DNA of 64,000 bases from assembly GCF_964194155.1 (NCBI RefSeq), contig NC_135901.1, positions 20,088,001 to 20,152,000 of the forward strand, read 5' to 3'. Both the position numbers and the translations under genes were made by a program. Each line of letters opens with the position of its first letter. Position 1 is the stretch's first letter. Of the stretch, positions 5,782 through 58,866 are shown piece after piece. The notes beneath the pieces were generated by a model. The model made no database searches. It saw only the letters and a program-made list of their open reading frames with translations, and was not told where the DNA came from. The stretch is from Cetorhinus maximus. Lineage: Eukaryota.

Positions 5782-6903
5782 TTACTCATGAATTCGCTGG
5801 TGTCTCAGCAGGTTGGACAAGTCAGTGAATCCCTTCCCACACTCGGAGCAGGTGAATGGCCTCTCCCCAGTGTGAATCCGCTGGTGCCTCAGCAGGTTGG
5901 CTGACTGAGAGAATCCCTTCCCACACTCAGGGCAGGTGAATGGCCTCTCCCCAGTGTGCGCGCGCTGGTGTTTCAGAAGGGTGGATAAATCAGAGAATCC
6001 CTTCCCGCACTCAGAGCAGGTGAATGGTCTCTCCCCAGTGTGAATTCTTTGGTGTACAGTGAGGTTTGTTGATCGCCTGAACCCAGTCCCACAGTGAGAG
6101 CACTTGAACGGTCTCTCCTCAGTGTGAACACGTTGGTGGGATATCAATTGCCCGGAACTTTTATAGCACTTCCCACAATCTGGGCATTTAAAAGGTCTTT
6201 CATCAGTGTGAACTCGCTGGTGTATAAGCAAGTCAGATGACCGAGTGAATCCCTTCTCACACTCTGAGCAGGTGAATGGTCTCTCCCCAGTGTGAGTGAG
6301 CTTGTGTAAATGCAGGCTGCCGGATTGAGTGAATCCCTTCCCACACTCGGAGCAGGTGAACGGCCTCTCCCCAGTATGAACCTGCCGGTGAGCCAACAGG
6401 TTGGATAATTGAATGAATCCCTTCCCACATACAGAGCAGGTGAATGGTCTCTCTCCAGTGTGAACTCGCTGGTGTGTCATCAGGTGGGATGACCGAGTGA
6501 ATCCCTTCCCACACACAGAACAGGTGAATGGTCTCTCCCCAGTGTGATCACGCTGGTGTGTCAACAGGTGGGATGACTGGATGAATCCCTTCCCACACTC
6601 GGAGCAGGTGAATGGTCTCTCTCCAGTGTGAACTCGCCAATGATTCAGCAGGGTGGCTGACCGAGTGAATCCCTTCCCACACTCAGAGCAGGTGAATGGT
6701 CTCTCCCCTGTGTGAATTCGCTGGTGATTCTGCAGGGCGGATGAATGAGTGAATCTCTTCCCACAGTCCTCACATTTCCATGGTTTCTCCCTAGTGTGAC
6801 TGTGCTTGTGTCTCGACAGGCCAGATGATCGGCTGAAGCCTCGTCCACACACAGAACACATGTATGGTTTCTCTCCATTGTGGATGGTGCTTTTCCCTTC
6901 CAT
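5782..6903 (-). CDS. C2H2 zinc-finger protein, 13 tandem fingers, no effector domain (gene G1)
   Basis: Intact ORF from ATG 6903 (MEGKST...) to TAA 5782 with TGERP linkers; acceptor TTTCACAG ending at 7013; AATAAA at ~4900-4905 on the minus strand. Confidence 0.9.
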
Positions 6904-7208
6904 ATTCAAAATCCGATAATATTCACTTTAACATAAATTGGGCAACTCCATCAGATCCTGGTGTGATGTTTGGTTTCAGTTTCCCGAATGCAAATCCTCC
7001 CCTTCTAATACCCTGTGAAATTTAAAACAGAAAAAGAGTGACAGAGAACCCACAAAAACACAAAGACGGACTGTGAAATTGTGCTGAACAAATTTATGGG
7101 ATTTGCAATCGGGAAAAAGACCATGAAAGCTGAAGGGCTGTCATAAAAACCCAACTGGTTCATTAATGTCACCCAGTCTGGACCTAAAGGGGACTTTGGA
7201 CACTATAG

Positions 7209-7455
7209 GAGGAAAAAGAGAGAGAGCGCGAGAGAGAGAGCCAGCACGCGAGAGAGAGAGCGCGCGAGAGACAGAGAGAGCGCGAGCGAGAGAGAGAGCG
7301 CGAGTGAGAGAGAGAGAGCGCGAGCGAGTGCGAGAGCGAGGAATAGAGATATAGAAGGAGAGGTAGAGAGAGGGAGAAAGAGAAAGATAAAGAGAGGGGA
7401 AGAGAGAGAGAGAGAGGCAGCGGATGAAAAAGAGAGGCAGCGGATGAAAGAGAGT
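7209..7455. repeat. (GA)n / (GC)n mixed microsatellite
   Basis: Directly visible GAGAGA/GCGCGA array. Confidence 0.95.
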
Positions 7456-7596
7456 CCTTTTATAAATCTACAGTTTGGCCAAAAAGTGACAGAACCTCCC
7501 AAACTGTCAAGCTCAACCACCTGGAAGGACCAGGGTAGAAGGTGTATGTGAACATCATCGCCTGCAAGTTCCCCTTCAACTCAGACAACATCCTGA

Positions 7597-9240: not shown

Positions 9241-9469
9241 CTCCGAAACAATTTCACTGTTTTCAAATTTAAAATCTCCTGCTGGAGCCTGCAGTTGGAA
9301 AGATATCAGAAGCACTGAATCAGGGAAAAATATCAGTTTTCAAATCTTTAGCTCCCTGTGAAAGGAGATTACAAGAGTCATAAGTGTCACTAGTGGTTAG
9401 AAATTCAGAATAAACAAACCTTTCTCTTGAGTTGAGCTTGCTGTGTGTAAATCCTCCCCTTCTAACCAC
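9241..9469 (-). other. Putative non-coding exon 2 of G1 (alternative acceptors giving exon starts at 9469 and 9355; donor GTGAGT at 9240)
   Basis: Splice sites conserved with the paralogous exon at 62509/62589-62707(+). Confidence 0.6.
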
Positions 9470-9569: not shown

Positions 9570-9990
9570 TGCACAGGAGGCAGTTCAGTAAAGGTTCACT
9601 AGTCTGATTCTTGGGATGAGGGAGTTTGTCATTTGAAGCAAGGTTAGAGGTTGTACTCATTGGAGTTAATAAGAATGGGCAAGGATTTTATTGAAACATA
9701 TAAGATTCTGAGGGCTCTAGACAGATAGATGCTGAAAGGTGTTTCCCCTCATAGGGAGAATCTAGCACTAAGGGGCAGTGTTTAAAACTAAGAAGTCTCC
9801 CATTTAACACTGAGATGAGGAGAAATTTCTTCTCTCAGAAGGTCATTCGTCTGTGGAATCCAATGAGCTCAGTCTACAAGGGACTCAAGGATTATGAGGG
9901 CAGGAGGAACAATCAGATCAGCCATGAGTTTATTTCATCAGCGGAGCAGACTCGACGGGCCGAATGGCCTATTCCTGCTCCGAATTCTGG
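9570..9990 (+). mobile_element. CR1 LINE 3' fragment
   Basis: DFIETYKILRALD, MRRNFFSQKV and a CR1 3' UTR. Confidence 0.8.
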
Positions 9991-10004
9991 TGTCTTCCGT
10001 TCTT

Positions 10005-10500
10005 CGGATCGCCGCGCATGCGTCCTAAAGCACCTGGCTCCTGGAAAGATGGCGGCCGTTAACCCGGACCTGTCAATCTGCTGCTCACCGGGAACCTGGA
10101 GCCCCGCCCACACTCTGTTGCGTCACCAAGATTGTCGCGCACGCGCTCTGCTCAGCGCTGAACAAAGATGGTGGTCGTTAATCTGGGCCTGTTCCAGAGA
10201 AAAAGCCCCGGAATTACAAACGCCGGACCTGCAGGGTCTAATTCGGAGCTTGTGGCCTCCAGCGGTTGTTTATAAAATCTCCCCTCTCTCCACCCAGGAC
10301 TCCCGGCTCCGTTCCTCATTCCGCCCCGCCAGCTCTCACCCGCAGAAAAAAGCGTCCATTGCACTCACGGAGGTCTGATCAAAGTGACACTGCGCATGCC
10401 CGAGATCGAATCCAGCATTGTACCTGCGCACTGGGTTCCTGTACCGTTAATCGGGCACATTCACAGCCGTCGGGCATGTTGGGTAACAGTAGCGCCATTG
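10005..10500 (-). promoter_or_regulatory. CpG-island promoter / first exon P2 (likely drives G1)
   Basis: YY1 at 10045-10056; NRF1-like GCGCATGC at ~10014 and ~10392; Staf/ZNF143-like TTACCCAACATGCCCGACGG at 10467-10486(-); donor G|GTGAGA at ~10338. Confidence 0.7.
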
Positions 10501-10739
10501 ATTCTCCAAACACGGAATGGAAAATAATTTTGTTAAAAATTGGGATACGTTAACTTAAGAAATCACATACATGCTTTTGAACGGGTGCAATGCTATGTTC
10601 TATTTCTCAAAGTGATTCAAACCGTTGCTCTGCTGTGGAACTACGTAGAACTTATAAAGCTTTTCTTAATGGTTCCTCTCTCATTTATCTCCAGATACTG
10701 AATATTCTCTGCTTTACAGAATGATACAGCACAGATGGA

Positions 10740-11670: not shown

Positions 11671-14600
11671 ACAGCCCACAGACTCCAGGGGGATGGGAAC
11701 CTGAGTGGGAGACACAGAAGAGGGAAACAAAGATAGACATGAAAGACAGGGAAGTAAAAAGCAAAAGTGGAAGGCAGAGGAAACGGGGGCTAGCAGCAAA
11801 TAGGGCAATAGTACAAAAGAAGATGTGAATAAAGACAAGTCTAAAGGCACTGTCCCTGAATGCATGGAGCATTCGCAATAAGGTAGATGAATTAATAGTG
11901 CAAATAGATGTAAACAGCTGTGATATGATTGCGATTACAAAGGCACAGCTGCAGGGTGACCAAGGCTGGGAACTGAATATCCAAGGGTATTCGATATAAA
12001 TATCCTAAAGGAAGGGCAGGCACAAAGAAAAATAAAGTGGAGTGGTATTGTTAGTTAAGGATGAAATCAGTGCAATAGTGAGAGAGGATATCGGCTGAGA
12101 AAATCTAGATGTAGAATCAGTCTGGGTGGAGCTAAGAAGCAACAAGGGGTGGAAAACATTAGTGGGAGTTGTGAACAGGCCTCCAAATGGTAGTAGTAAG
12201 GCAGGGGACAGTATTAAAAAGGAAATTAGAGACGCATATAACAAGGGTGCTACAGTAATCATGGATGACTTTAATCTAATATAGACTGGGCAAATCAAAT
12301 TATCAATAACACTGTGGTGGATAAATTCCTGGAGTCTGTACAGGATGGTTTTTTATACCAGTATGTCGAAGAACCAACTAGTGAACAGGCTATCTTGGAT
12401 TTGGTTTTGTGCAATGAGAAGGAGTTAATTAATAATCTTGTGGTGTGGGGTCCTTTAGGGAACAGTGACCATAACATGAGAGAATTCTTCCTTAGGTTGG
12501 AAAATAAAGTAGTTCAATTCAAAACTCGGGTCCTAAATCTAAACAAAGGGAACTCAAAGGTATAAGGCGTGAGTTGGCGAAGATAAATTGGAGAATTTCA
12601 TTAAAAGGCATGATGGTGCATAGGCAATGGCTAATATATAAGGAATGAATGTATGCATTGCAACAGTTATATATTCCTTTCTGGTGCAAAAACACAACAG
12701 GAAAAGTGGCCCAACCATGGCTAGCAAAACCAATGAAGTGTAGTATTAGATCCAAAGAGGAGTCATATAAAGTTGCTTGAAAAAATAGCAAGCCTGAGGA
12801 TTGGGAGCAGTTTAGAATTCAGCAAAGGAGGACCAAGAGATTGATTAAGAGGGGAAAATAGATTACGAGTGTAAACTTGCAAGGAACATAAAAGAGGACT
12901 GTAAAAGCTTCCACAAGCATGTAAAAAGAAAAAGATTAGTGAAGACAAATGTAGGTCACTTACAGTCCGAAATAGGAGAATTTATAATAGAGAACAAGGA
13001 TATGGTAGTGCAATTAAACAACAACATTAGTTCTGTCTTCATGGAGGAAGACACAAATAACTTCCAAGAAATACTAGGGAACCAAAGGTCTAATGAGAAG
13101 GAGGAATTGAAGGAAATTAATATTACTTAAAAAAACAGTGCTGGAGAAATTAATGGGACTGAAAGCTGATAAATCCCCAGGGCCTGATAATCTATATCCC
13201 AGGGTACTAAAGAAGGTGGCCATGGAAATAGTGGATGCATTGGTTGTCATCTTCCAAAATTCTGTAGATTCTGGAATAGTCCCAGCAGATTGGAAGGTGG
13301 CAAATGTAACCCCACGATTTAAAAAAGGAGGGAAGAACCGGAATTACAGACCGGTTAGCCTAACATCTGTGGTAGGGAAAATGCTAGAATCTATTATTAA
13401 AGGATGTGATAACAGGATACTTAGAAAATATCAACAGGATTAGACAAAGTCAACATGGATTTATGAAACGGTAATCATGTTTGACAAACCTCCTGGAGTT
13501 TTTTGAGGACATGACCAGCAGAATAGATAAGGGAGAACCAGTGGATGTGGCATATTTGGATTTTCAGAAAGGTTAAAGTCCCACATAAGAGGTTAGTGTG
13601 CAAAATTAAAGCACATGGGATTGGGGGTAATATATTGGTATGGATTGAGAACTGGTTAGCGGACAGAAAACAGAGAGTAGGAATAAATGGGTCTTTTTTG
13701 GAATAGCAGATGGTGACTAGTAGGGTACCGCAGGGATCAGTGCTTGGGCCCCAGCTATTCACCGTATATATCAATGATTTGGAGGAGGGAAACAAATGTA
13801 ATATTTCCAAGTTTGCTGCCCACAAAAAACTAAGTGGAAATGTGAGTGGTGAGGAGGATGTCAAGAGGCTTCAAGGTGATTTAGACAAGTCGAGTGAGTG
13901 GGCAAATACTTAGCAGATGCAGTATAACATGGATAAGTGTGAAGTTATTCACTTTGGTAGGAAAAACAGAATGGCAGAGTATTATTTAAATGGTGATACA
14001 TTGGGAAATGTTGATGTACAAAGGGACGTGGGTGTCCTTGTACACCAATCACTGAAAGCAAGCATGCAGGTGCAGCGAGCTGTTAAGGAAGATGGTATGC
14101 TGGCCTTCATTGCAAGAGGACGTGAGTACAGGAACAAGGATGTCTTACTGCAGCTATACAGGGCCTTGGTAAGATCACACCTGGAGTATTGTGTGAAGTT
14201 TTGTCTCCTTACCTAACAAAGGATATACTTGCCATAGAAGGGGAGTAGCGAAGGTTGACCAGACTGATTCCTGGGATGGCAGGATTGTCGTATGAGGACA
14301 GGTTGGGCCAACAAAGCCTGTATTTATTGGAGTTTAGAAGAATGAGAGGGGATCTCATTGAAACGTATAAAATTCTGACAGGGCTGGACAGACTGGATGC
14401 AGGAATGACGTTTCCTCTGCCTGGTTGGGGTCGGGGGGGCGGGTGGGTGGGGGGACGGCGGCGACGTGGGGGTTGGGGTGGGGTCTAGAACAAGAGGTCA
14501 CAATCTCAGGATACGGGGTAGGCCATTTAGAATTGAGATGAGGAGAAATTTTTTCTCTCAAAGGGTGGTCAACCTGTGGAGCTCCCTATCACAGGGGGCT

Positions 14601-14790
14601 GTGGTGGCAAAGTCACTGAATATATTTCAGAAGGAAACAGACAGATTTCTAGACTCTAGGGGCGTCAAGGAGTATGGGGAGAGAGTGGGAGTATGCCATT
14701 GAGATAGAAGATCAGCCATGATCATATTAAATGGCGGCGCAGGCTCGAAGAGCTTAATGACCTATTCCTGCTTCAATTTCCCATGTTTTT
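11670..14790 (+). mobile_element. CR1 LINE, near-complete but disrupted ORF2 (APE endonuclease and RT) with 3' UTR
   Basis: [65 protein letters not shown]; many stops and frameshifts. Confidence 0.93.
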
Positions 14791-14799
14791 ATTAACCGG

Positions 14800-15260
14800 C
14801 TCACGACGGTGACCTCTCACCTGACAGCTCACAATGCCCGGCTGATTGACGGCAGAGCCGGACCAATAGGAAAGGAGAGGGCGGGGCTGTAGGCGAGGCG
14901 AAGCGGCTGGTCGTCCAACCAATCGGAGTGAATAAGGGGCGGGGCAGGGCTGAGTGAAGCATGCGCGGTGTGATTAATGGCGATGGAGGGAAGCATTTTT
15001 CTCGGATTCGCATTCGGTAAAGGCGAAGAGGGTGGGATGGCGGAGTGGTGCGATGGCGGAATCTGGCCGGTGGTTGAATAGGTTTCGTAAATGTTATGTA
15101 AACCGTAAACCTCGAAAAACAACGAACCAATACCCGGGACCGTCCCCCTCCTTTGCACAGAGCAGGGCCGCAGCTTTCTCCCAGTTCCTGACCCGGATTA
15201 ACGGCCGCCATCTTTAATGGGGCCATTTGCAGCGAGGCGCATGCGCGACCTCCATCTTTG
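14800..15260 (+). promoter_or_regulatory. CpG-island promoter P3 (upstream of pseudogene G2)
   Basis: Two CCAAT boxes (~14863, ~14919), GC boxes, YY1 GCCGCCATCTTT at 15204-15215, NRF1 GCGCATGCGC at ~15237-15246. Confidence 0.7.
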
Positions 15261-15764
15261 AAGAGGGCAATGTTTTTGAAATTTTTCCAATGACAAAATG
15301 TGGACATTGTCCATCAAGTTGCTTCACACTTTGAGTTACAATGTCTTATTGATGAGGCAGAACAACGATATATGTCCAAGTCAGTGACAATCATTTGTAT
15401 TTATATTGTGCCTTAAACAGTATAAAACTTTCCAATGCATTTCACAGAAATGTTACAAAGTAACATTTGATACAGCCACATAAGGAGATATTAGGGCAGG
15501 TCACCAAAAGCTTTGTCAAAGAGGTAGGTTTTAAGGAATATCTTAAAGGAGGAAAATGACGTGGAGAGGCAGAGAGGTTTAAGGAGGAAATTCCTGAGCT
15601 TGTGGCCTAGGCAATTGAAGGAACAGTCACTGATGGCGATTAAAATCGGGAATTCTCAGGAGGCTGGAATTAGATGAGTGCAGAGATCTTGGAGATTGTG
15701 TGGCTGGTGGTGATTGTGGAGATAGGAATGATAACAACCATGGAGGAAAACAAGGATGAGAACC

Positions 15765-16000: not shown

Positions 16001-16925
16001 GAATTTTAAAAGTTGGTGCTTCTTAACTGGGAGCCTTTGTAAGTCAGCAAGCACAGTGGTACTGGGTGAACAAGACAGTACGACTAAACACACAAGCAAC
16101 AGAGCTTTGAATGACCTCAAGATTACGGGAGTTGGAGGGGGATGGTTTAATGTTGAAGGCCGACTGGGAGTGTGTTAGGATAGTTTAGCCTTGCAGTAAC
16201 AAAGGAATGGATAATGGTTTCTGCAGGAGATAAACTGAGACTAAGGTGGAGTCAGGCCATATTACTGAGGTAGAAATAGGCAGCCTTGGTGATGATGTGG
16301 ATATGTGGTTGGAAGCTCATCTGGGAGTCACATATGACACCATGGAAGTGAACAATCTGGTTCAGCTTCAGAGGAAACTTCTACACATCCCGTACTTGAC
16401 GTCAGACAAGTCAGGATGGTGCATGACTTGGGTGGGAACTTGGAGGTGCTGGTGTTCACATACCCTGGTCTGTCTAGGTGGTGGAATCTGAGGGTTTGGG
16501 TGATTCTGTCAACGTTCTTGTCAAATTATAGATATCAAATTTTTCTCCACCACCTGCCTCTCCCACCTCTCTCTCACACACACCCTCTCTCCACCCATAG
16601 AGCCAGAGTCTTGTTTAGGCCCAGACCAGATTCCCACCCTGAAGGACATCAGTGAACGAGTTGGGTTTTTACGACAATCCAGCAGTTTTCATGGTCACTT
16701 TTTCCTGGTGCCGGCCCCACAAATTACCAGATTCATTCAGCTCAATTTCACAACCTGCATTTGTGTCTTCTGGGTTCTGTCTCACGCTCTTTTTCTGTTT
16801 TATATCAATTTCACAGAATATTGGAAGGGAAGGATTTGCAGTCAGGAAGCTGAAACCAAACATCACATTGGGATCTGACAGAGTCACCCAATTTATCATA
16901 ACCAGAATATCATCGGAATTTGAAC

Positions 16926-18045
<1,120 letters not shown>

Positions 18046-23957: not shown

Positions 23958-24911
23958 TTACTTGTGAATTCGCTGGTGTCTCAGCAGGTGGGGTGAATGA
24001 GTGAATCTCTTCCCACACTGGGTGCAGATGAATGGTCTCTCCTCAGTGTGAACTCGCTGGTGTGTCAGCAGGTTGGATGAGGTAGTGAATCTCTTCCCAC
24101 ACTGAGGGCAGGTGAATGGCCTCTCTCCAGTGTGAATTCGTTGGTGTGTCAGCAGGTTGGATGAGGTAGTGAATCTCTTCCCACACTGAGGGCAGGAAAA
24201 TGGCCTCTTTCCAGTGTGAATTTGCTGGTGTCTCAGCAGGCTAGATAACTGAGTGAATCCCTTCTGACACTGGGGGCAGCTAAATGGCCTCTCCCCAGTG
24301 TGAACTCGCTGGTGTGTCAGCAGGTGGGATGACCGAGTGAATCCCTTCCCACACTCAGAGCAGATGAACGGTCTCTCCCCCGTGTGAACTCGCTGATGTC
24401 TCAGCAGGTGGGGTGAATGAGTGAATCCCTTCCCACAAGTGGAGCAGGTGAATGGCCTCTCCCCAGTGTGAATTCGCTGGTGTACAATGAGTTGAGATGA
24501 TCGCCTGAACCCAGTCCTGCAGTGAGAGCATTTAAATGGTCTCTTGTCAGTGTGAACACACTGATGGTACATCAGCTCCCAGGAACTTTTAAAGCACTTC
24601 CCACAGTCTGGGCATTTAAAAGGTCTCACGTCAGTGTGAACTCGCTGGTGGCTCAGCAGGTTGGATGAAAGAGTAAATCCCTTCCCACACGTGGAGCAGG
24701 TGAACGGCCTCTCCCCAGTGTGACTGCGCCGATGAATTTCCAACTCAGACGGGAATCTGAATCCCTTCCCACAGTCCCCACATTTCCACGGTTTTTCCCT
24801 GGTGTGGCTGCGCTTGTGTCTTGACAGGCCAGATGATTGGTTGAAGCCTCGTCCACACACAGAGCACGTGTACGGTTTCTCCGCGATGTGAACGGTGCTT
24901 TTTCTTTCCAT
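23958..24911 (-). CDS. C2H2 zinc-finger protein, 11 tandem fingers, no effector domain (gene G3)
   Basis: Intact ORF MERKST...HQRIHK*; acceptor TTTCACAG at ~25019; AATAAA at 23831-23836 on the minus strand. Confidence 0.9.
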
Positions 24912-28615: not shown

Positions 28616-29350
28616 TCAGGAGGCATTGTGCCTGAGTGAATCCCTTCCCACACACCAAGAGTTGAATAACCTCTTCTCAGTGTGAGTGCGTTGGTGGGTC
28701 AGCAGGTTGAAAGACTTTGCAAATCCCTTCCCACACAGCGAGCAAGTGAACGGCCTCTCCCCAGTGTGAACTCGCTGGTGTGCGGTGAGGTTGGATGACC
28801 GACTGAATCCTTTCCCACATACAGAGCATGTGAACGGTTTCTCTGCAGTGTGAGTGTGTTGGTGAGCAGTGAGGTTGGATGACTGCCTGAAACTCTTCCC
28901 ACAGGAAGTGCAGCTAAATGGCTTCTCCTCAATGTGGATTTGCTGGTGTGACAGCAGGTGGAATGACCCAGTGAATCCTTTCCCACACACAGAGCAAGTG
29001 AACAGCCTCTCTCCAGTGTGAACTCTCTGGTGTGTCAGAAGGTGGAATGACTGAGTAAATCCCTTCCCACATTCGGAGCAGGTGAATGGCCTCTCCCCAG
29101 TGTGAGTGCGTTGGTGTACAGTGAGTGCTGAAGAGTGCCTGAACCTCTTTCCACAGGAAGTGCAGCTGAATAGCTTCTCCTCAGTGTGAATTCGTTGGTG
29201 TGACCAAAGGCCAGATGACTGAGTAAATCCCTTCCCACACACAGAGCAGGTGAATGGCCTTTCCCCTGTGTGACTGCGTCGATGGTTTTCCAGCAGGGAT
29301 GGGTAACTGAATCCTTTCCCACAGTCCTCACATTTCCACGGCTTCTCCAT
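28616..29350 (-). CDS. C2H2 zinc-finger protein G4, 8 intact fingers plus a frameshifted ninth (possibly an incipient pseudogene)
   Basis: [17 protein letters not shown]...; last finger out of frame near 28660; canonical upstream acceptor mutated (ACAG to CCCG at ~29710). Confidence 0.65.
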   Translation of the reverse strand: MEKPWKCEDCGKGFSYPSLLENHRRSHTGERPFTCSVCGKGFTQSSGLWSHQRIHTEEKLFSCTSCGKRFRHSSALTVHQRTHTGERPFTCSECGKGFTQSFHLLTHQRVHTGERLFTCSVCGKGFTGSFHLLSHQQIHIEEKPFSCTSCGKSFRQSSNLTAHQHTHTAEKPFTCSVCGKGFSRSSNLTAHQRVHTGERPFTCSLCGKGFAKSFNLLTHQRTHTEKRLFNSWCVGRDSLRHNAS

Positions 29351-33184: not shown

Positions 33185-33490
33185 CTGAAATCTTTGCCTA
33201 CAGACAAGCTGTTTCACTTCTACATTCAAACTTTGGTGATATTCAGGTTCTGATGAATCGAATGACTGTCAGATGTTTGGTTTGAGTTTCCCGTCTGTCA
33301 ATCCTCCACTTCCAGTGTCCTGTAAGTTTACAATAACCATCACTATAAATCCAGGATGGAAACTGAGAAGGGACAAACATTTCTCTTGGTTTGAGTTTGC
33401 TGTGTGTAAATCCTCCCCTTCTAACCCCCTGTAAAAGGAGCTTCCAAAATCCATCCCTCTCAGTCCAGGATAGAAATTCATAACATTCTC
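33185..33490 (-). pseudogene. Truncated ZNF exon leader (two tandem acceptors); finger array lost
   Basis: Matches the leaders of G4 and G8; continuation found at ~30910-30945 beyond the CR1. Confidence 0.6.
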
Positions 33491-33499
33491 TCCTCCTGC

Positions 33500-33980
33500 T
33501 ACCAGGGACAGGGATGACCGCGCATGCGCCCTGCTGCACAAGATGGCGGCCGTTAATCCGGGCCTCTCACCGAGGGACGCGGATCGGGGCAACTGCCGCC
33601 CACAGATACCAGCGAGGAACCGATAGCTTGTTATTCTGGCTTCAGAATGTCTCAAGGTGTTTACGAAACCTGCCCGTCCACCCGCCGGCTGCATCTCTCC
33701 CTCAATTCCGCCCTTTATCTTACCGGCTGCGGACCTGACAAACAAGCAGCTTTCCTTCGTCCTCACTCACACTACGCATGCTCCAAACTCGAGCCGGGAT
33801 TGCATTTGCGTACTGATGTCTAGCTCCAGCAACTATTGCGTATGGTTCCGTCACAATGCCCGGGTGATTGACTGGACCAATAGGAAGAGGTGCAGAACCA
33901 AAGGGGTGCGGCTGGCTCTCCAACCAATCGAAGTGAATGAGGGGCGGGGCTGAACGAGGATCTCCCTCATTGGCTGAAAC
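33500..33980 (-). promoter_or_regulatory. CpG-island promoter P4
   Basis: NRF1 at ~33519-33528, YY1 at 33539-33550, donor CG|GTAAGA at ~33724; CCAAT/GC-box block 33850-33975 paralogous to 14828-14945. Confidence 0.7.
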
Positions 33981-38883: not shown

Positions 38884-39753
38884 TCACTTGTGAACTCGCT
38901 GATGTGTCAGCAGGGTGGATGACTGAGTGAATCCCTTCCCACACACGGAGCAGGTGAATGGCCTCTCCCCAGTGTGAACTCGCTGGTGTGTAATCAGATC
39001 CTTTTTACTTTTAAAGGTCTTCTCACACTCAGAACATTTAAAAGGTCTCTGATCAGTATGAACAAGTTGATGTGTCAGAAGGTGGGATGACCGAATGAAT
39101 CCCTTTCCACACATGGAACATGTGAATGGCCTCTCGCCAGTGTGAACTCGCTGATGTGTCAACAGGTCAGATGAATTGGTGAATCCCTTCCCGCACATGG
39201 AGCAGGTGAATGGCCTCTCCCCAGTGTGAATTCGCTGGTGCGTCAGTAGTTTGGATGGTCGATTAAATCCCTTGCCACAGATAAAGCAGGTGTATGGACT
39301 TTCCCCAGTGTGAATTCTCTGGTGATTCAGAAGCCTGGATAATTGATTAAATCCTTCTCCACACAAGGAACAGATAAACAGACTCTCCCTCGTGTGAATG
39401 CGCTGGTGTGTCAGCAGGTAGGATGACTGAGTGAATCCTTTCCCGCACACGGAGCAGGTGAACAGCCTCTCTCCACTGTGAGTTTGCTGGTGCCTCTGAA
39501 AGTTTGATGAATGACCGATTGCCTTCCCACACACAGAGCAGATGACTGAACTCTGCTCAGTGTGAAATTGCTGGTGTCTCAGAAGGTTGGATGAATTAGT
39601 GAATCCCTTCCCACACACGGAGCAGGTGAACGGCCTCTCCCCAGTGTGACTGCGTTGATGAATTTCCAGCTTTGACGGGGAACCAAATCCCTTCCCACAG
39701 TCCCCACATTTCCATGGTTTCTCCATAGTGCCGGTGTCCTCGTGCCTGTCCAT
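38884..39753 (-). CDS. C2H2 zinc-finger protein, 10 tandem fingers (gene G5)
   Basis: Intact ORF; ATG at 39753 or the family-conserved ATG at 39726 (MEKPWKC); ends HQRVHK*. Confidence 0.9.
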
Positions 39754-40379: not shown

Positions 40380-40850
40380 AGTCAATGCCCGCTCTCCAAC
40401 ATGACCCTGTCAGATGGAGTTCAGGGGCTCAGAGGAAGAAAAGAAAATGAGGCGGTGAATCTGAGTTGGGAGAAACAAGGAGAGAAACAGGATTCAATGG
40501 AGAAACTGAGCCGGGGGCGAGCGCAGCCTCAGGAACAGCGAGTGCGGCTCTCAGAGGCCGAATGAGAGCGGCCGTGCCCGGCGGCCGTGCGGTGATCTCC
40601 CCGGGCTGGGGGACTGGGGGTCGGGGCTGCCCATTAAAGCGATGCTGCAGCGCCTCCCCCATCCTCGCCGCCGCTTCCCGGTTTCTTCTCCCGTTTCCAC
40701 CGAGTCCAACTCACAACAAAGGAACCGCCCAGAATGCCCCGCGGCTGGTCCTGGGGAGCATGCGCACTCTCAGCGCCTGGGGAAAGGAGCGAGTTGGATA
40801 GAGCGGTTTCTGGGACGCGGTGGATTGTGGGAACTGGGGCCGCCATTAGC
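40380..40850 (-). promoter_or_regulatory. CpG-island promoter / first exon P5 (likely drives G5)
   Basis: High CpG; Staf/ZNF143 consensus TTCCCACAATCCACCGCG at 40816-40833(-); NRF1-like GCATGCGCA at ~40758; donor GTGAGT at ~40713(-). Confidence 0.7.
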
Positions 40851-40964
40851 ATAAGAATCAAACAATGGTTCCAACAGAGGAGGACGACAATTGGCCCGTC
40901 TGATCTTCTAGCATCACTTAGTTGATCACACTCTCTCGCCTTTTCTCCATAACCCTGCAATTGA

Positions 40965-44683: not shown

Positions 44684-46490
<1,807 letters not shown>

Positions 46491-46959: not shown

Positions 46960-47275
46960 TCTCTCCTCCTGTTGACAGGGGCCAGGATGACTGTACATGC
47001 GCCTTGTTGCACTTTGACCCTGTCAGGATGGCGGCCTGTGACTGAGAACCGCGGCCCGCAGCTGCTGCCCCGTTCGCAGAGAACTCGGGAGCTCTAGCTC
47101 CTTATTCAGGCGTTGAGGCCGCCAGTGAGTATTTATGAAGCCTCCCCACCCACCCTGCCGCCTCCAATCCTCCCCATCCACCGGCTTCATTTACTCGCCC
47201 TACTCGACATTTCTGTACAGCTTCGATCAGCTCCTGGTGTGGCCTCTACTGCGCATGCTCTACTCAGCGCCCTTT
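46960..47275 (-). promoter_or_regulatory. CpG-island promoter P6 (upstream of G6)
   Basis: CAGGATGGCGGC at 47024-47035, TGCGCATGC at ~47250; adjacent acceptor cassette at 46850-46975. Confidence 0.6.
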
Positions 47276-47452
47276 GTCATTCATGAAATATGTGAAAGGT
47301 CTCTCTGTACTGTGACTGTGTTGCTGTGTCAGTAAATGGGATGACCAACTGAATCCCTTTCCACTTTCAGCTGGTGATGATATTTTCATGCTGTGATTTT
47401 ACCCATCACTTTACGCTCAGATGGGAATCTCAAACCCTCCCTGAAATGATAA

Positions 47453-48310
47453 AGCAAAATACTGCAGATGCTGTAAATCTGCAACAAAAACAAAAAATGC
47501 TGGAAAAACTCAGCAAATCTAGCAGCATCTGTGGAGAGAGAAACAGAGTTAACTTTTTGAGCTCGTATGACACTTCTTCAGAGCTGACGAGAAGTGGAAA
47601 TGTGATGAAATTTATACTGTTAAAGGAGGTGGGGCAGATGGAGCCCTTCCCCTCTGTCAGCATTCCATAGGGACCGTTCCCTCCAGGACATCCTAGTCCA
47701 CTCCTCCATCATCCCCAAAACCTTATCCCCTTCCCATGGCACCTTCCCATGCAATCACAGAAGGTGCAACAACTGCCCCTTTACCTCCTCCCTACTCACC
47801 GTCCAAGGGCCCAAACACTCCTTTTAAATGAAGCAGCGCTTCACTTGCACCACCTTCAATTTCGTCTACTGCATCTGCTGTTCCCAATGTGGTCTCCTCT
47901 ACATCAGGGAGACCAAGCACAGATTGGGTGACCGCTTTGCAGAACACCTGTGGTCTGTCCACAAGCATGAACCAGAACTTCCGGTTGCTTGCCATTTCAA
48001 CACCCCATCCTGCTCTCATTCCCACATCTCTGTCCTTGGCCTGCTGCAATGTTCCAGTGAAGCCCAACGCGAACTGGAGGAACAGCACCTCATCTTCCGA
48101 TTAGGCACTTTACAGCCTTCTGTACTTAACATTGAGTTCAACAACTTCAGACCTCCATTCTCACCCTTTTTTCTAATCCCCTTTTCTCTACATTCAGTTT
48201 TTTCCACATTTTTATTTTCATTTTAATTCATTTATCCATTGTTTTATCCCCTTTTTTTAATCAACCCTTCTATCCAATTTTCTATCCTTTTTTCCAGTAT
48301 TTTCTGCTTT
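47453..48310 (+). mobile_element. Penelope-like element (GIY-YIG) with an inverted terminal fragment
   Basis: ORF 47828-48226 FVYCICCSQCGLLYIRETKHRLGDRFAEH; inverted 3'-end copy at 47453-47640. Confidence 0.88.
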
Positions 48311-51720: not shown

Positions 51721-51819
51721 CAATTTGTTTGCTGTATCAATTAATTTAATAGTTTTGTAGGTTGGGCCCATGGCTCCATTGTAATCCGATCACAAATCAT
51801 AATTTTCTATTCAACAATG

Positions 51820-52240
51820 TCATGTTTCAATGGTGCGGGTCTTACCCAGCATCCACGACGATACAGAATGTGCCCCATACTCACTATAGGAAACCCTGGC
51901 GCAAACGCAGTGGTGGGTTGTGAATGGCGCATGCACATTGTTCCGACTAGCGCATGCGCAATTCAGGTGCTGGAGCGACAGTGAGGCGGTCATCTCAACT
52001 CCGCAACCGGTGAACAACAGCTGATTATAGGACGGTAATGGAAGCGGCGGAATGGGTGGGGGAGCCTCATAAACACCGAGTGGAGGCCTGGGAACAAAAG
52101 TAAGAATGTACCAGTCTCGCATTTAGTCCAAGCGGGGCAGCAGCCGCAGAACTGATCCTGATGACAGGTCCGAGTTAACAGCCGCCATCTTGATCGGGGT
52201 CAATGTGCATCATGGCGCATGCGCGAACATCCCTGTCCCT
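51820..52240 (+). promoter_or_regulatory. CpG-island promoter P7
   Basis: Staf-like site at 51842-51860; NRF1 at ~51950 and ~52215; YY1 GCCGCCATCTTG at 52181-52192. Confidence 0.7.
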
Positions 52241-52499
52241 GTCAGCAGCAGGAGAGAATGCTGTGCATTTCTATCCTGGACTGACAGGGATGGATTTTGG
52301 AAACTCCTTTTACAGGGGGTTAGAAGGGGAGGATTTACTTTTAGGTGGTGGAGGTTGAGGATTTGTAAGATTTCGTCAAAGTTGTGATCAGGTTGAAGAT
52401 ACATAAAACCTCCGCCCCTTCTGCTCCCCCTCTTTCTGTCTCCCTCCTTCCATGGAGGCCAGGGTCTTGTAGGTCCAGACTGACCAGCAGGTTATCCTA

Positions 52500-52672
52500 A
52501 CCTGAATATCATAGAAATGTGAACATGGAAGGAAAAAGCAGTATTTACAACAGGGAGAAACCGTACACATGTGCTGTGTGTGGATGAGAATTTAGCCAAT
52601 CATCTAGCCTGTTGAGAAACAAGCATATTCATACCAGGGAGAAACTGTCTCAGTGTGGTGACTGTGGGAAAC
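52500..52672 (+). pseudogene. Truncated ZNF start (MEGKSS.., about 1.3 fingers, with a stop)
   Basis: Homologous to the G1/G2 N-terminus; TGA in finger 1; ends abruptly. Confidence 0.65.
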
Positions 52673-52966
52673 ATCTGGCTTAGTTGTATGGATGTAAAAT
52701 CCTTCTCCTTCACCACTTCCTTTCCCTCTTTCTCTCAATCTTCCCAGAGAGGCCAGAGTCATGTGTAGAGTGACTCGGTGGCAGGTTCCCTTCCCTGAAG
52801 GACATTAGTGAACCAGTTGGGTTTTTACGACAATCCAACAGTTTTCATGGTCACTTTTTCCAAGTGCTGGCCCCACAAATTACCAGATTCATTCAGCTCA
52901 ATTTCGCAACCTGCCTTTGTGGATTCTCTCGCACTCCTTTTTTTCTGTTTTAAATCAATTTTACAG

Positions 52967-55475
52967 GATATTGGAAGGGTAGGACTTGCAGTCACAAAAC
53001 TCAAACTGAATATCACATTAGGACCTGATGCAGTCGCCCAATTTATTGCAACCTGAATATCATTAGATTTTGAACACGGATGGAAGGACCAAGGGGGCAA
53101 TCTATGGGTGGAGCCAGAGGACATCGGTAGAGTGTTGAACGAATATTTCACATCTGTCTTCACTCCAGAGAATGAGCATGAAGGAATAAAACTCAGAGAG
53201 AGAGATTGCGAGGTTCTTGAGCAAATTGACATAGGGAATGACAAAGTATTGGAGGTGTTGGCCGGCTTAAAATTGGACAAATCTCCAGGTTCAGATGATT
53301 TGTGTCCCAGATTGCTGAGGGAGGCAAGGGAAGAGATTGCAGGGGCTCTGACCCAAATTTTTAATTTCTCTCTGGCCACTGGGGAGGTGCCAGAGGACTG
53401 GAGAACAGATAATGTGGTTCTGCTATTTAAGAAGGGTTGTAGAGATAAACCAGGGAACTACAGACCAGTGAGTCTCACGTGGTAGGGAAACTATTGGAGA
53501 AAATTCTGAAAGAGAGAATCTATCTCCACTTGTAGAGGCAAGGTTTGATCAGGGATAGTCAGCATAGCTTTGTCAGAGGGAGGTCATGCTGAACAAATTT
53601 GAATGAATTTTTTGAGGAGGTGACCAGGTGTGTAGATGAGGGTAGTGAAGTTGATGTAGTTTATATGGATTTCAGCAAAGCCTTTGACAAGGTCCCACAT
53701 AGGAGGCTTATAAAGAAGGCAAATGCATATGGGATACAGGGTAAGTTGATAAGGTGGATTCAAAATTGGCTTAGTTGTTGGAGACAGAGGGTGATGACAG
53801 AAAGCTGCTTTAGTGACTGGAAGCCAGTGTCCAGTGATGTACCACAGGGATCTGTGCTGGGTCCCCTATTATTTGTCATTTATATAAACGACATAGATGA
53901 CTATGTGGGGGGTAGGATTAGTAAGTTTGCAGATGACACAAAGATTGGCCGGGCGGTTAACAGTGAGGTTGAGTGTCTTGGGCTACAGGAAGATATAGAC
54001 GGGATGGTCAAATGGGCAGATAAGTAGCAGTTGGAATTTAACCCTGAAAAGTGTGAGGTGATACACTTTGGAAGGAGTAATTTGACAAGGAAGTACTCAA
54101 TGAATGGCATGACACTATGAAGTTCTGAGGAACAAAGGGACCTTGGCGTGTGTGTCCTTAGATCTCTGAAGGTGGAGGGGCATGTTAGTGGGGTGGTGAA
54201 AAAGGCATATGGGACGCTTGCCTTTATCAATCGAGGCATAGATTACAAAAGTAGGGAGGTCATGTTGGAGTTGTATAGAACCTTGGTGAGGCTACAGCTG
54301 GAGTACTGTGTGCAGTTCTGGTCGCCACATTATAGGAAGGATGTGATTGCAGTGGAGGGGGTGCAGAGGAGATTCACCAGGATGTTGCCTGGGATGAAAC
54401 ATTTAAGTTATAACGAGAGGTTGGATAGACTTGGGTTGTTTTCATTGGAGCAGAGAAGGCTGAGGGGCGACCTGATCGAGGTGTACAAGATTATGAGGCG
54501 GGTTGCCTCACATCCTTTTAAAAAGTACCTGGATGAGCACTTGGCACATCATAACATTCAAGGCTATGGGCCAAGTGGTGGTAAAAGGGGTTAGGTAGGT
54601 AGGTCAGGTGTTTCTCATGTGTTGGTGCATGCTCGATGGGCCGAAGGGCCTCTTCTGCAGTGTGTGATTCTGTGAGAAAGCACCGTTCACAGTTAAGAGG
54701 ACCCGTACATGTCTTCTGTGTGTGGACGAGGCTTCAGCCAATCATCTGACCTCTTGAACCACAAGTGCAGTCACAACGGGGAGAAGCCTTGGAAACGTGG
54801 GGACTGTGGGAAGGGATTCAATTATCCAGTTGAAACTCATCAGCACAGCCACACCAGGGAGAGGCCATTCACCTGCTCTGAGTGTGCAAAGGGATTCACT
54901 CTGTCATGCAACCTGTTGGATCACCAGTGAGTTCACAGTGACAAGAGACCTTTTAAATGCCCAGACTGCGGGAAGTGGTACAAAAGTTCTGGGGAACGAA
55001 TATGCCATCAACGTGTTCACTCTGATGAGAGACTGTTCAGGTGCTCTCACTGTGAAACAGGGTTCAAGCAATTGTCTGTACACCAGCAAGTTTACACTGG
55101 AAAGAGGCCGTTCACCTACACGGAGCAGAGAAGGCTGAGGGGTGACCTGATCAAGGTGTACAAGATTATGAGGGGCATGGACAGGATAGATAGAGAGCAG
55201 CTTTTCCCCTTAGTTGAAGGGTCAGTCACTAGGGGACATAAGTTCAAGGTGAGGGGCAGGAGGTTTAGGGAGGATGTGAGGAAAAACTTTTTTACCCAGA
55301 GGGTGGTGACGGTCTGAAATGTGCTGCCTGGGAGGGTGATGGAGGTGGGTTGCCTCACATCCTTTAAAAAGTACCTGGATGAGCACTTGGCATGTCATAA
55401 CATTCAAGGCTTTGGATTGTGGGAAGAAATCCACTCAGTCATCCAACCTGCTGAGACACCAGCGAGTTCACAAGT
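52967..55475 (+). pseudogene. C2H2 ZNF pseudogene G7 disrupted by two CR1 insertions
   Basis: Leader 52967-53087; fingers at 54676-55120 and 55415-55475; stop TGA at ~54928. Confidence 0.85.
53087..54675 (+). mobile_element. Young 5'-truncated CR1 LINE inserted at the G7 start codon region
   Basis: Long RT ORFs ([29 protein letters not shown]); internal deletion at ~54498. Confidence 0.93.
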
Positions 55476-55699
55476 AATTATTCTGATTAGATTTTGCCAT
55501 TAATCCATTTGTCCATTGGTGTCTGTTTCTGATGTTAATGGAATCCAGCCCAGTTACAGTGATTAATATTCTGGGCAAAAGTCAAACCAGCTTTGTGTTA
55601 AACACAGTGTGTTGGATCTTTTTAATATCTCTAATTCATGTTAGTTTCTTTTGAAGGGCCCGCCCTCTCTCCGTCTGCCTCATCCTCACCTTCAAAATG

Positions 55700-56945
55700 A
55701 CTGAGGAGCCTTGAGTTCTTTGAGGATGTAATAAACAGGGTGGATAAAGGGGAACCAGTAGATGGAGTGTCTTTGGATTCACAAAAGGCCTTCAATGAAC
55801 TGTCATATTAAAGGTTACTGCACAAGATAAGACCTCATGGTATTGGGGGTGATATATTAGCATGGATAGAGGACTGACTAACTAACAGGAAAGAGTGAGT
55901 TGGGATCAATGGATCATTTTCAGGTTGGCAAACTGTAACTAGTGGAGTGCCACAGGGATCAGTGTTGGGGCCTCAACTATTGACGATCTATACTGATGTC
56001 TTGGCTGAAGGGACCATTGTACTGTAGCTAAATTTGCTAATGATACAAAGATAGGTACGAAAGCAAGTTGTGAGGAGGATACAAAAAGTCTGCAAAGGGA
56101 TATAGATAGGTTAAGTGAGTAGGTAAAAAATTGGCAGATGGAGTATAATGTGGTAAATGTGAGGATGTCCAGTTTGGCAGGAAGAACAGAAAAGCAGAAT
56201 ATTATTGAAATAGGGAGAGACTGCAGAATGCTGCAGCATCGAGGAATCTGAGTGGCCTTGTACATGAGTTATGAAAGGTCAACATTCAGGTACTGCAAGT
56301 GATTAGGAAGGCAAATGGAGTGCTGGCCTTTATTGCAAAGAGGATGGAGTATAAAAGTACAACTGTACAGGGCATTGGTGAGACCACACCTGGAATACTG
56401 TGTACAGTTTTAGTCTCCATACTTAAGGATGGATATACTTGCACTGGAAGCAGTTCAGAGAAGGTTCACTCGGCTGATTCCAGGAATGAAGGTATTATCC
56501 TATGAGGAAAGGTTGGGCCTGTATCCATTGGAGTTCAGAAGAATGAGAGGTGATCTTATTGAAACATACAAGATTCTGAGGGGTCTTGACAGGGTAGATG
56601 CTGAGAATATGTTTCCTCTCGTGGGGTAATTGAAAATTAAGGAATACTGTTTAAAAGTGAGGAGTCTCCCATTTAAGATGGTGATGAGGAGGAATATTTT
56701 TCTCTCAGAGGGGCATTAGTCTTTGGAATTCTCTTCCACAGAGAGTGTGGAGGCTGTGTCATTGAATATTTCAAGGCTGAGTTAGACAGATATTTAACCT
56801 ACAAGGGAATCAAAGGTTAATGGGATTGGGGACAGACAGGAAAGTAGAGTTAAGACCACAATCTGATCAGCCATGGTCTTATTAATTGGAGGTGCAGCCT
56901 CAAAGGGTGAATGGCCTACTCCAGCTCCTATCTCTTACGATCTTG
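55700..56945 (+). mobile_element. CR1 LINE RT / 3' fragment
   Basis: [32 protein letters not shown] and a CR1 3' UTR. Confidence 0.88.
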
Positions 56946-57939
56946 CCTACCTGAGCAGTACATTGTTATCTTCCTGTAGTCTCCAGCTTTCTAACTCACT
57001 ACAAAGCGCACAGCAATTTTTGTATTATTATTCGTGTCCCTACATTTAAGTCTGAATCAATAATATAAACCATGAATAAAAGAGCCAGTACTGAGCCCTG
57101 TGAAAACCCATTGGAAACAGCCTTCCAATCACAAAAAACACCTATCGACCGTCATTCATCACTTCCTGCCATTGAGCCAATTTTTGATCCAACTTGTAAC
57201 TTGCTCTGGGATCTCATGAGGTTTTATTTTTCTGCCCAGTCTGCCATGTGAGACCTTGTAGATGCGGAGAGAATGTGGGAGAATCCAAAACTAGCGGCCA
57301 GAAATACAAGATAGTTACTGAAAAATCCAATAGGGAAATAAGGAGAAATGTGTTTACTCAGAGTGGTTAGAAAGTGGAACTCACTATCACAGGAAGTAGT
57401 TGTGGCAAAAAACTGAGATAATTTCAGAAGGAAACTAGATGAGTACATGAGAGAAAAAGGAATTGAAAGATAAAGTGAAAGACTGAGCTGAGGTAGATGG
57501 AATGGAATGAGAAGCATGTGGAGTATAAAGACCAGCAGATACTAGTTGGGCTGAATGGTCTGTGTCTATTCCATATATTCTGTGTAATTCTCTGTCAACT
57601 TTTTTTACAGCGTATTAGGAGGGGAAGATTTACAGATGGGAAACTAAAACCAATTATCAAGATCTGACAGAGTCACTTGATTCATCAGGGCCTGAATATC
57701 ATCAGCCTCTGAACATGGAAGGATAAATGTTTGTCCGTGGGAAGAGATTTCCAACATCAGCGTGACTGGGAAAGCACAGAGACACACAGACACCCGATTG
57801 TGAGTGTTCCAGTGTTTCAGTACACAGCCTGAAACAAAATCACACCATTCACAACGAGGAGAAAATGTACACATGTTCTGTGTGTGGACGAAGCTTCAAC
57901 TGATCTTCCAAGTTGGCGAGACAGAAGGGCACCAGCACC

Positions 57940-58866
57940 ATGGAGAAACCATGGAAATGTGGGGACTGTGGGAAGGGATTCAAATACCAGTCGCAGCTTG
58001 AAACTCATGGACACATTCACACTGGGGAGAGACCATTCCCCTGCTCCTTGTGTGGGAAGGGATTCACTCGGTCATCTGACCTTCTGAGACACCAACTCAC
58101 TCACACTGAGGAGAGACCGTTCACCTGCTCCATGTGTGGGAAGGGATTCATTAATTCATCAGATCTTCGGACACACCAGCGAGTTCACACTGGAGAGAGG
58201 CCGTTCACCTGCTCCGTCTGTGGGAAGGGATACACTCAGTCAGCCCACTTGCTGGCCCACCAGAGAGTTCACACTGGGGAGAGGCCATTCACCTGCTCTG
58301 AGTGTGGGAAGGGATTCTCTCGGTCATCCCACCTCACTGCACACCAAATAGTTCACACAGATGAGAGACCTTTCAAATGTTCTGACTGTGAGAAGAGCTT
58401 TAAACGCAGGTACCAGTTGCTGACACACCAACACATTCACACTGGGGAGAGGCCGTTCACCTGCTCCGAGTGTGGGAAGGGATTCATTCATTCATCTGAC
58501 TTTCTGATACACCAGCGAATTCATACTGGAGAGAGGCCGTTCACCTGCTCCATGTGTGAGAAGAAATTCTCCCGATTATCCCGCCTCACTGCACACCAAC
58601 TTGTTCACACTAATCAGAGACCTTTTAAATGTTCTGACTGTGAGAAGAGCTTTAAAAGCAGGCGTGAAGTTCTGGCACACCAACGTACACACACTGGGGA
58701 GAGGCCGTTCACTTGCTCCGAATGTGGGAAGGGATTCGTCCATTCGTCCAACCTGCTGAGACACCAGCGAATTCACACTGGGGAGAGGTTGTTTAGCTGC
58801 TCCGAGTGTGGGAAAGGGTTTACTCAGTCATCCCACCTGGTGAGACACCAGCGAGTACACAAGTGA
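57940..58866 (+). CDS. C2H2 zinc-finger protein, 11 tandem fingers (gene G8)
   Basis: Intact ORF from ATG 57940 (ACCATGG Kozak context, MEKPWKC) to TGA 58866; acceptor TTTTTTACAG ending at 57610; AATAAA at 59003-59008. Confidence 0.92.

What the first reader, a model, noticed from the sequence alone, without database searches (positions are those of the whole stretch)
5782..58866. Effector-less (KRAB-free) tandem ZNF gene cluster in birth-and-death turnover
Seen: about 8 long finger arrays plus remnants in 64 kb. The intact ORFs are essentially pure fingers with at most ~14 N-terminal residues, stop right after the last His, and have diversified recognition helices. Known: tetrapod KRAB-ZNF and cyprinid FiNZ-ZNF clusters diversify this way against transposons but carry an N-terminal effector domain. 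Inference: this may be an independent cartilaginous-fish TE-recognition system that works by steric blocking or recruits cofactors through the fingers themselves.
Basis: partly seen in the sequence, partly recalled or inferred. Interest (0 to 1): 0.7.

Follow-up and report, generated by a model that had tools for sequence, protein, structure and literature searches.

The report
Shark chromosome of finger-only zinc-finger genes
This window is a slice of a 65-megabase shark chromosome carrying an estimated thousand intact genes that encode DNA-gripping zinc fingers and nothing else, with stop codons blocking any silencing domain from being spliced on at the usual site, so if they police transposons, which is likely but untested, they would need a different way to silence them than mammals or zebrafish use.

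Summary
Real, and larger than the window. It holds five open finger ORFs (8-13 fingers; one with a frameshifted tail) and three broken arrays. A bare ORF alone proves nothing, because KRAB and FiNZ sit on upstream exons. But in-frame stops lie between the conserved splice acceptor and the first finger in 89 of 89 paralogous loci and 26 of 26 intact arrays from unbiased tiles. Start codons have strong Kozak context (33 of 35). No KRAB, SCAN or BTB hit lies on this contig. The family spans contig C24 (about 3,400 arrays, about 1,000 intact, extrapolated) and spreads by duplicating multi-gene cassettes of about 50 kb. Selection is two-tiered: base-contact residues are purifying within recent clades (omega 0.43) but exceed the synonymous rate between subfamilies (pN/pS 1.5-1.9). 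Both N-terminus types occur in other shark orders, with a shark-specific first 'WKC...PS.LE' finger. TE binding, expression and cofactors are untested. This scan already reported the same family from other windows of this genome; I found no paper describing it. New variant of a known kind.

The parts
5782..6903 (-). Gene A, intact class I ORF (MEGKST...), 373 aa, 13 C2H2 fingers
   Evidence: 7 close paralogs at 94-96% leader identity, 7 of 8 clade members intact
6904..7012 (-). Non-coding leader of gene A's finger exon, from the conserved 3' splice acceptor to the Kozak ATG; two in-frame stops
9851..10550 (-). CpG island, likely promoter of A; two copies of the family motif (YY1-like GCCGCCATCTT plus NRF1-like GCGCATGCGC, names recalled) at 10182 and 10063; acceptor-like copy at 9468
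14651..15300 (+). CpG island, likely promoter of B (motif at 15197)
16817..18045 (+). Gene B, broken class I copy (stop after first finger, frameshifts; 10 complete fingers, at most 5 in one frame)
23958..24911 (-). Gene C, intact class I ORF, 317 aa, 11 fingers; leader 24912-25018 with a frameshift and stop
28616..29350 (-). Gene D, class II ORF (MEKPWK...), 244 aa, 8 fingers, frameshifted last finger; leader 29351-29709 holds three dead fingers; acceptor AG changed to CG in this copy
33200..33950 (-). CpG island with family motif (33557), two acceptor-like copies (33427, 33318) and a leader stub; a degraded motif also at 30102
38884..39753 (-). Gene E, intact class II ORF, 289 aa, 10 fingers; usual acceptor replaced by a repeat piece; 25 of 30 clade members intact
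40401..40950 (-). CpG island upstream of E, likely promoter
44720..46484 (-). Array F, decayed pseudogene (13.7 copies of the 84-bp unit, 6 complete fingers); CpG island at 46901-47350
51801..55480 (+). Unit H: CpG island with motif (52174), leader stubs (52317, 52968) and a fragmented class I array (54675-55480) interrupted by LINE-like pieces
57611..57939 (+). Non-coding leader of G: acceptor, decayed linker and three dead fingers, 4 in-frame stops, 5 upstream ATGs
57940..58866 (+). Gene G, intact class II ORF, 308 aa, 11 fingers
61901..62350 (+). CpG island with motif (62235), likely promoter of the next gene, an intact 7-finger ORF just beyond the window end

Best explanation
These genes belong to a chromosome-scale shark family whose intact members encode tandem C2H2 fingers with only 6-15 residues in front and one behind, and they likely act as sequence-specific binders of transposons and other repeats that would silence or stabilise their targets without a fused effector. 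SHOWN: each unit is CpG island, then conserved splice acceptor, then a stop-containing leader, then a Kozak ATG and the finger array; units are copied in multi-gene cassettes, and individual genes then break or gain and lose fingers; intact copies are under purifying selection; contact residues diverge faster than synonymous sites between subfamilies but are conserved within them. INFERRED: the leader is 5' UTR; the family descends from a longer gene whose N-terminal linker and first fingers decayed (class I deleted two fingers and kept its ATG; class II gained a stop and restarts at an ATG in a finger linker); new specificities are selected when a subfamily is born and then held. INFERRED, WEAKER: the targets are repeats, and repression comes from a partner recruited by the fingers, the best candidate surface being the shark-specific WKC finger, or from occupancy alone.
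For: In-frame stops between acceptor and first finger: 89 of 89 loci with an acceptor (90 examined, chosen by similarity to window genes) and 26 of 26 intact arrays among 68 arrays in 1.05 Mb of tiles (21 with a clear acceptor match). Among the 150 best-scoring leader matches of 5,844 candidates the longest open frame is 200 aa, and the four longest break before the array. The class II stop: 57 exact genome matches with TGA against 4 without, those 4 being one dead clade with no array behind. Strong Kozak in 33 of 35 intact ORFs. Promoter-proximal sequence is non-coding: omega 0.9-1.2 in all frames, 71 of 93 indels frameshifting. KRAB: 1 genome hit (PRDM9/SSX-like by my reading, on C34; 150 of 152 candidates scored); SCAN 0 of 150 and BTB 0 of 147 listed hits on C24. 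N-terminal parts of 128 other ZNF proteins match nothing but fingers and one retroelement piece in the sampled family DNA, while 5 hit the KRAB control locus. Purifying selection in 7 recent clades: hydrophobic core omega 0.07, linker 0.37. Between 26 subfamily representatives contact pN/pS is 1.51 (1.28-1.89) for generic fingers and 1.92 (1.39-2.48) for the 'SHCGTGF' finger, against 0.4-0.6 at other positions; pS (0.23-0.32 for these finger types) is not below flanking divergence (0.16-0.23). The same N-termini occur in annotated proteins of catshark, zebra shark, sawshark and basking shark. Across 3,221 metazoan genomes ZNF and retroelement counts correlate, independent of accessory domains (PMC10547256); sharks there have 475-3,586 ZNF ORFs.
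Against: No binding, expression or cofactor evidence exists here. Contact residues are purifying within recent clades (omega 0.43, CI 0.31-0.58), unlike a fast arms race, and looser pairs give only 1.1 (0.73-1.43), with broken copies at 1.29. Two of six finger types have contact ratios whose intervals exclude 1; four do not. The WKC finger is degenerate in 6 of 23 intact subfamily representatives, including window genes A and G, and its -1/3/6 positions vary like a DNA-binding finger; its retention may only reflect its position at the array end. No PxDLS, PxVxL, WRPW, eh1 or NuRD-type motif in 70 distinct intact proteins (motifs recalled). Class II leaders carry upstream ATGs (5 in G, one with strong context) that could limit translation. 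One zebra shark model (P0114) reads the leader in frame behind an upstream piece of no known family.
Confidence: 0.5

Rival explanations
1. Finger-only proteins with non-TE targets: host promoters, satellites, their own gene exons, or RNA. They tune expression or guard the repeat-rich chromosome against ectopic recombination rather than chasing new transposons.
For: Contact residues conserved within recent clades; subfamily E keeps nearly one fingerprint string over 25 intact copies; housekeeping-type CpG promoters. PMC10547256 itself notes non-TE targets of KZNFs and proposes a genome-stabiliser role.
Against: Roughly a thousand copies with 183 fingerprints in 359 fingers and contact pN/pS above 1 between subfamilies fit a large, changing target set better than a few fixed targets.
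Confidence: 0.25
2. Largely passive expansion: a duplication-prone chromosome multiplies 50-kb cassettes, and a few ancestral finger genes are kept only by weak, shared selection while most copies are redundant.
For: The A-C-D-E-G cassette recurs at least five more times within 21.6-25.9 Mb; only 26 of 68 sampled arrays are intact; near-identical copies, including broken ones, are common.
Against: Omega 0.07 at core residues and 0.37 at linkers among recent intact paralogs, Kozak retention, and diversifying signal between subfamilies.
Confidence: 0.15
3. A hidden effector: a small, fast-evolving domain with no Pfam model is spliced on through an acceptor downstream of the leader stop, or behind an internal donor, as FiNZ is in cyprinids.
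For: FiNZ is only 28 aa, lies on a separate exon and resembles no known domain (PMC10547256). The class II leader reads as a long open frame in many copies, as if the exon once received a coding exon. Some automatic gene models add N- or C-terminal pieces (P0011, P0014, P0037, P0114).
Against: Class I has 8 codons between stop and ATG with no conserved AG; class II AGs there lack a pyrimidine tract and are not invariant. Promoter-proximal sequence shows no coding constraint. The added pieces in the models are unrelated to each other by inspection; the N-terminal pieces of P0114 and P0073 have no match in 1.05 Mb of sampled C24. 69 of 70 intact proteins with a short tail stop one residue after the last His (set selected for tails up to 5).
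Confidence: 0.07

Closest known systems
Cyprinid FiNZ-ZNF (FZNF) genes on zebrafish Chr 4q (Wells et al. 2023, PMC10547256)
   Same: Hundreds of tandem C2H2 genes on one chromosome region, fingers in one 3' exon behind a splice acceptor, recent duplicates, positive selection in some clades only (4 of 7 there).
   Different: FZNFs carry a 28-aa N-terminal FiNZ domain on an upstream coding exon; here the leader is closed by stops. TE repression was shown by knockdown in zebrafish; nothing is shown here.
KRAB zinc-finger (KZFP) clusters of coelacanth, lungfish and tetrapods
   Same: Clustered polydactyl C2H2 genes in birth-and-death turnover; fingerprints change by in-frame finger gain and loss (PMC3971581; here).
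   Different: No KRAB on C24; the only genome hit is a PRDM9/SSX-like exon on C34. KZFPs are reported only from sarcopterygians (PMC10380595), and KRAB families are enriched among those absent from cartilaginous fishes (PMC8455134).
'ZNF-only' polydactyl genes of tetrapods (212 human models; PMC3971581)
   Same: No KRAB, SCAN or BTB domain.
   Different: Those are mostly old, conserved genes (136 of 212 with tetrapod orthologs), not a lineage-specific family of about a thousand near-pure finger proteins.
Coleoid cephalopod C2H2 expansions (PMC12513265)
   Same: Large lineage-specific C2H2 expansions concentrated on few chromosomes, with a TE link left open.
   Different: Independent origin; the passages I read do not state whether an effector is present.

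Membership tests
KRAB-ZNF | KRAB-A domain on an upstream exon, in frame with the finger exon | tested here: not met
   PF01352: one genome hit, on C34; in-frame stops behind the acceptor in 89 of 89 loci
KRAB-ZNF | Tandem C2H2 array with TGE(K/R)P linkers in a single exon, genes clustered | tested here: met
KRAB-ZNF | Repression through TRIM28/SETDB1 | not testable with these tools
   no interaction data; TRIM28 was not searched in this genome
FiNZ-ZNF | 28-aa acidic FiNZ domain on an upstream coding exon | tested here: not met
   No FiNZ profile was on hand, so the domain itself was not searched; but no upstream exon can be in frame through the conserved acceptor and promoter-proximal sequence is non-coding
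FiNZ-ZNF | Concentration of hundreds of genes on one chromosome arm | tested here: met
   hits from 0.37 to 64.9 Mb of the 65.2-Mb contig C24; 48 arrays in 910 kb of tiles outside the window block
FiNZ-ZNF / KRAB-ZNF | Positive selection at base-contacting residues | tested here: inconclusive
   omega 0.43 within recent clades; pN/pS 1.5-1.9 between subfamilies for two of six finger types; counting methods only, no site-model likelihood test
FiNZ-ZNF / KRAB-ZNF | Binding to and repression of transposable elements | not testable with these tools
   no motif predictor, TE library or ChIP data
SCAN-ZNF | SCAN domain upstream of the array | tested here: not met
   0 of the 150 scored hits (4,987 candidates) on C24; stops behind the acceptor
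BTB-ZF (ZBTB) | BTB/POZ domain upstream of the fingers | tested here: not met
   0 of 147 hits on C24 (150 of 218 candidates scored)
Tandem C2H2 ZNF expansions of metazoans (broad kind) | Lineage-specific, clustered ORFs with five or more fingers in birth-and-death turnover | tested here: met
   shark counts in PMC10547256 supplement

The most novel reading that the evidence does not exclude
Sharks run a third, independent vertebrate zinc-finger defence against transposons: a whole chromosome of about a thousand finger-only proteins that lost an ancestral N-terminus before the major shark lineages split and recruit silencing machinery through a dedicated shark-specific finger ([15 protein letters not shown]), which would be a built-in effector hidden inside the DNA-binding array.
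Probability: 0.2. Interest if true: 0.85.

Novelty: new variant of a known kind. Interest (0 to 1): 0.55.

Why it matters
It is open how TE-tracking zinc-finger families work outside the KRAB/TRIM28 lineage; even FiNZ has no proven cofactor route (PMC10547256). A vertebrate family of about a thousand proteins that are 97% finger and linker makes that question directly testable: either fingers alone can nucleate silencing, or large ZNF expansions need no effector and do something else. It also shows a whole chromosome built by cassette duplication, and warns that automatic models for these genes add doubtful terminal pieces.

Tried and rejected
RNA: no RNA holder listed among 18 runs (nine guessed RNA with small shares); this says nothing on expression. 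An upstream coding exon in the promoter cassette: a half-conserved ATG about 130-140 nt before the motif looked like a KRAB-sized exon, but frames vary, stops are common and omega is about 1; rejected. An intact ancestor-type copy with open leader: none among 150 best matches, four longest checked, nor at the C36 and C37 copies. The 4 class II copies without the stop are dead. Loose paralog pairing mixed non-orthologous fingers and gave contact ratios near 1.1 in intact and 1.3 in broken copies; superseded. Protein searches were swamped by generic ZNFs and gave only 5 family members from 4 shark species. Linear corepressor motifs: none. Head-to-head bidirectional promoters as the rule: with my motif only 3 of 35 sites have an oppositely oriented array within 6 kb against 30 of 35 in sense, though several divergent pairs around a CpG island without that motif appear in the 30.0-30.1 Mb block. 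No structure or complex prediction was run: no candidate partner was in hand. TE-binding prediction was not attempted.
Full report
Observation. Six-frame translation and tandem-repeat search show eight C2H2 arrays between 5782 and 58866. Five are open from a Met: A (13 fingers), C (11), D (8), E (10), G (11). B, F and H are broken. A, C, E and G end one residue after the last His; D has a frameshifted last finger. Pfam lists only zinc-finger-type families among the 25 best per ORF. The window is G000:C24:20088001-20152000 in a 3.99-Gb genome; the closest named relatives of its proteins are shark proteins.

Why a bare ORF is not enough. In KRAB-ZNF and FiNZ-ZNF genes the effector sits on an upstream exon (PMC10547256 section 4), so their finger exons also look bare. 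The test is whether an upstream exon could be in frame. Each finger exon here starts at a conserved pyrimidine-rich acceptor about 110 nt (class I, MEGKST...) or 330-380 nt (class II, MEKPWK...) before the ATG. In-frame stops lie between acceptor and first finger in 89 of 89 paralogous loci with an acceptor (90 examined; they include the window's own three and were picked by similarity). In 1.05 Mb of tiles taken without regard to similarity, 26 of 68 arrays were intact and all 26 have their last stop downstream of the best acceptor match (21 with at most 7 mismatches in 22). A protein search with an open leader scored the 150 best of 5,844 candidates: the longest open frame was 200 aa, and the four longest all break before the array. 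For the class II stop, 57 exact genome matches have TGA and 4 do not; those 4 are one dead clade. The ATG is in strong Kozak context in 33 of 35 intact ORFs. Genome searches place no KRAB, SCAN or BTB hit on C24; the one KRAB hit is a PRDM9/SSX-like exon on C34 by my reading of its translation (only the best candidates are scored). N-terminal parts of 128 other ZNF proteins match only finger-like sequence and one retroelement piece in 1.74 Mb of sampled DNA, while 5 hit the KRAB control locus.

Gene unit and history. A CpG island with a GCCGCCATCTT plus GCGCATGCGC motif (YY1- and NRF1-like; names recalled) points to an array within 6 kb in 30 of 35 cases. The sequence before the motif shows no coding constraint (omega 0.9-1.2 in all frames; 71 of 93 indels frameshifting). 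The leader looks like decayed coding sequence: a linker-like frame followed, in class II, by three dead fingers. I infer one longer ancestor; class I lost two fingers and kept its ATG, class II gained a stop and restarts at an ATG in a finger linker. Annotated proteins show the class I start region in catshark and zebra shark, and the class II start in sawshark, so both predate the split of these lineages (a deep split, recalled). The zebra shark model P0114 reads the leader in frame behind an upstream piece; its own class I ATG is mutated and its tail frameshifted, so I take it as a model of a broken copy, but it is the one counter-example. RNA evidence is weak: in contigs of three runs guessed to be RNA, from a coded organism, a repeat-like piece is joined to the start of the acceptor-type exon (joint 9466 to 8300, depth 105-170), which fits splicing of a non-coding exon in some paralog.

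Scale and mode of birth. Matches run from 0.37 to 64.9 Mb of the 65.16-Mb contig, plus unplaced contigs and single copies on C36 and C37 that have the same class II build. Outside the window's own block, 910 kb of tiles held 48 arrays of three or more fingers, 15 intact, which extrapolates to about 3,400 arrays and about 1,000 intact ORFs; density is patchy (0 in 100 kb at 62 Mb), so the range is wide. The window's gene order A-C-D-E-G recurs whole or in part at 21.6, 22.4, 24.5, 25.0 and 25.9 Mb, and different genes are broken in different copies: C is intact in 2 of 6, E in 6 of 6, A in 4 of 5. Within clades the main change is gain and loss of whole fingers, for example 10-16 fingers in one C subclade.

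Selection. In 7 recent colinear clades (55 sequences, parsimony on trees, finger pairs at least 85% alike) omega is 0.07 at core hydrophobic residues, 0.37 at linkers, 0.61 at other positions and 0.43 (0.31-0.58) at contact residues; excluding CpG changes gives 0.46. Broken copies give 0.65 at contacts; Cys and His are fixed by how fingers were found. Between 26 subfamily representatives, contact pN/pS is 1.51 (1.28-1.89) for generic fingers and 1.92 (1.39-2.48) for the SHCGTGF finger; the other four finger types give 0.8-1.5 with intervals that include 1. Synonymous divergence is not below flanking non-coding divergence. Loose pairing gave 1.1. So specificity diversifies between subfamilies and is then held; these are counting estimates on related sequences, not likelihood tests.

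Mechanism. The proteins are a median 97% finger and linker and carry none of five recalled corepressor motifs (70 proteins). One finger stands out: [19 protein letters not shown]. It is first in class II and second in class I, strict in 17 of 23 subfamily representatives, rare elsewhere in arrays (Pro at +1 in 5 of 212 other fingers), and its pattern matches exactly the 5 shark family proteins among 140 stored ZNF proteins. It is a candidate partner-binding surface, but it is degenerate in 6 of 23, including A and G, and may persist only because end fingers escape shuffling. TE targeting rests on analogy and on the metazoan-wide ZNF-retroelement correlation; it was not tested.

Literature. PMC10547256 (Wells 2023): passages, sections 4 and 10, supplement rows and one part of the code file read; its main text never mentions sharks, but the supplement counts 475-3,586 ZNF ORFs in eight chondrichthyan assemblies; three supplementary files were not searched and could bear on prior description. 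Passages only: PMC11603059, PMC8455134, PMC11754734 (not used), PMC12513265, PMC10380595, PMC3971581. Nine full-text searches found no paper describing an effector-less shark ZNF chromosome; subscription papers are largely outside this library. The scan's own notes (8 of 38 shown) describe this same family from other windows of this genome; I had reached the effector-less, dead-finger and chromosome-scale reading before that look-up, and they are not independent support.

Verdict. New variant of a known kind; interest 0.55.

Noticed in passing
window 59555-60076 (-): Degraded integrase-core ORF (PF00665, E 1.7e-5, below the curated cut-off), likely a remnant of an LTR or retrovirus-like element; described only.
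   Followed up: no
window 22920-23492 (-), 11686-14418, 37171-38423, 54121-54594, 55709-56930: LINE-like fragments (RT PF00078, E 1.5e-6, just below cut-off); copies split array H and separate the promoters of A and B.
   Followed up: partly
window 1464-3173: About 790-bp inverted repeat at 92% identity (1464-2232 against 3173-2384), with a related copy at 47727-48151; perhaps a MITE or palindromic element.
   Followed up: no
L001 (G000:C34:9123034-9123144, -): The only KRAB hit in the genome search, a PRDM9/SSX-type ancestral KRAB exon by my reading.
   Followed up: partly
G000 genome-wide: 4,987 SCAN-like candidates spread over most large contigs, probably gag capsids of Gmr1-like LTR elements (label recalled); none of the best 150 on C24.
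   Followed up: no
window 39955-40150 (-): In most of the E clade a repeat piece replaced the usual acceptor, yet this clade is the best preserved (25 of 30 intact); a pyrimidine-rich AG at about 40145 may serve instead.
   Followed up: partly
L257 (G000:C24:34040500-34044500): A class II ORF with at least 31 fingers in one frame, far longer than the usual 5-16.
   Followed up: no
window 9468, 33427, 46905, 52317: A second, acceptor-like copy of the exon start sits about 130-600 nt behind many promoters, often duplicated in tandem at 114-nt spacing; it may be a small non-coding middle exon.
   Followed up: partly
window 7217-7416: 200-bp (AG)n/(CGAG) simple repeat in the intron of gene A that scores as a CpG island.
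   Followed up: no
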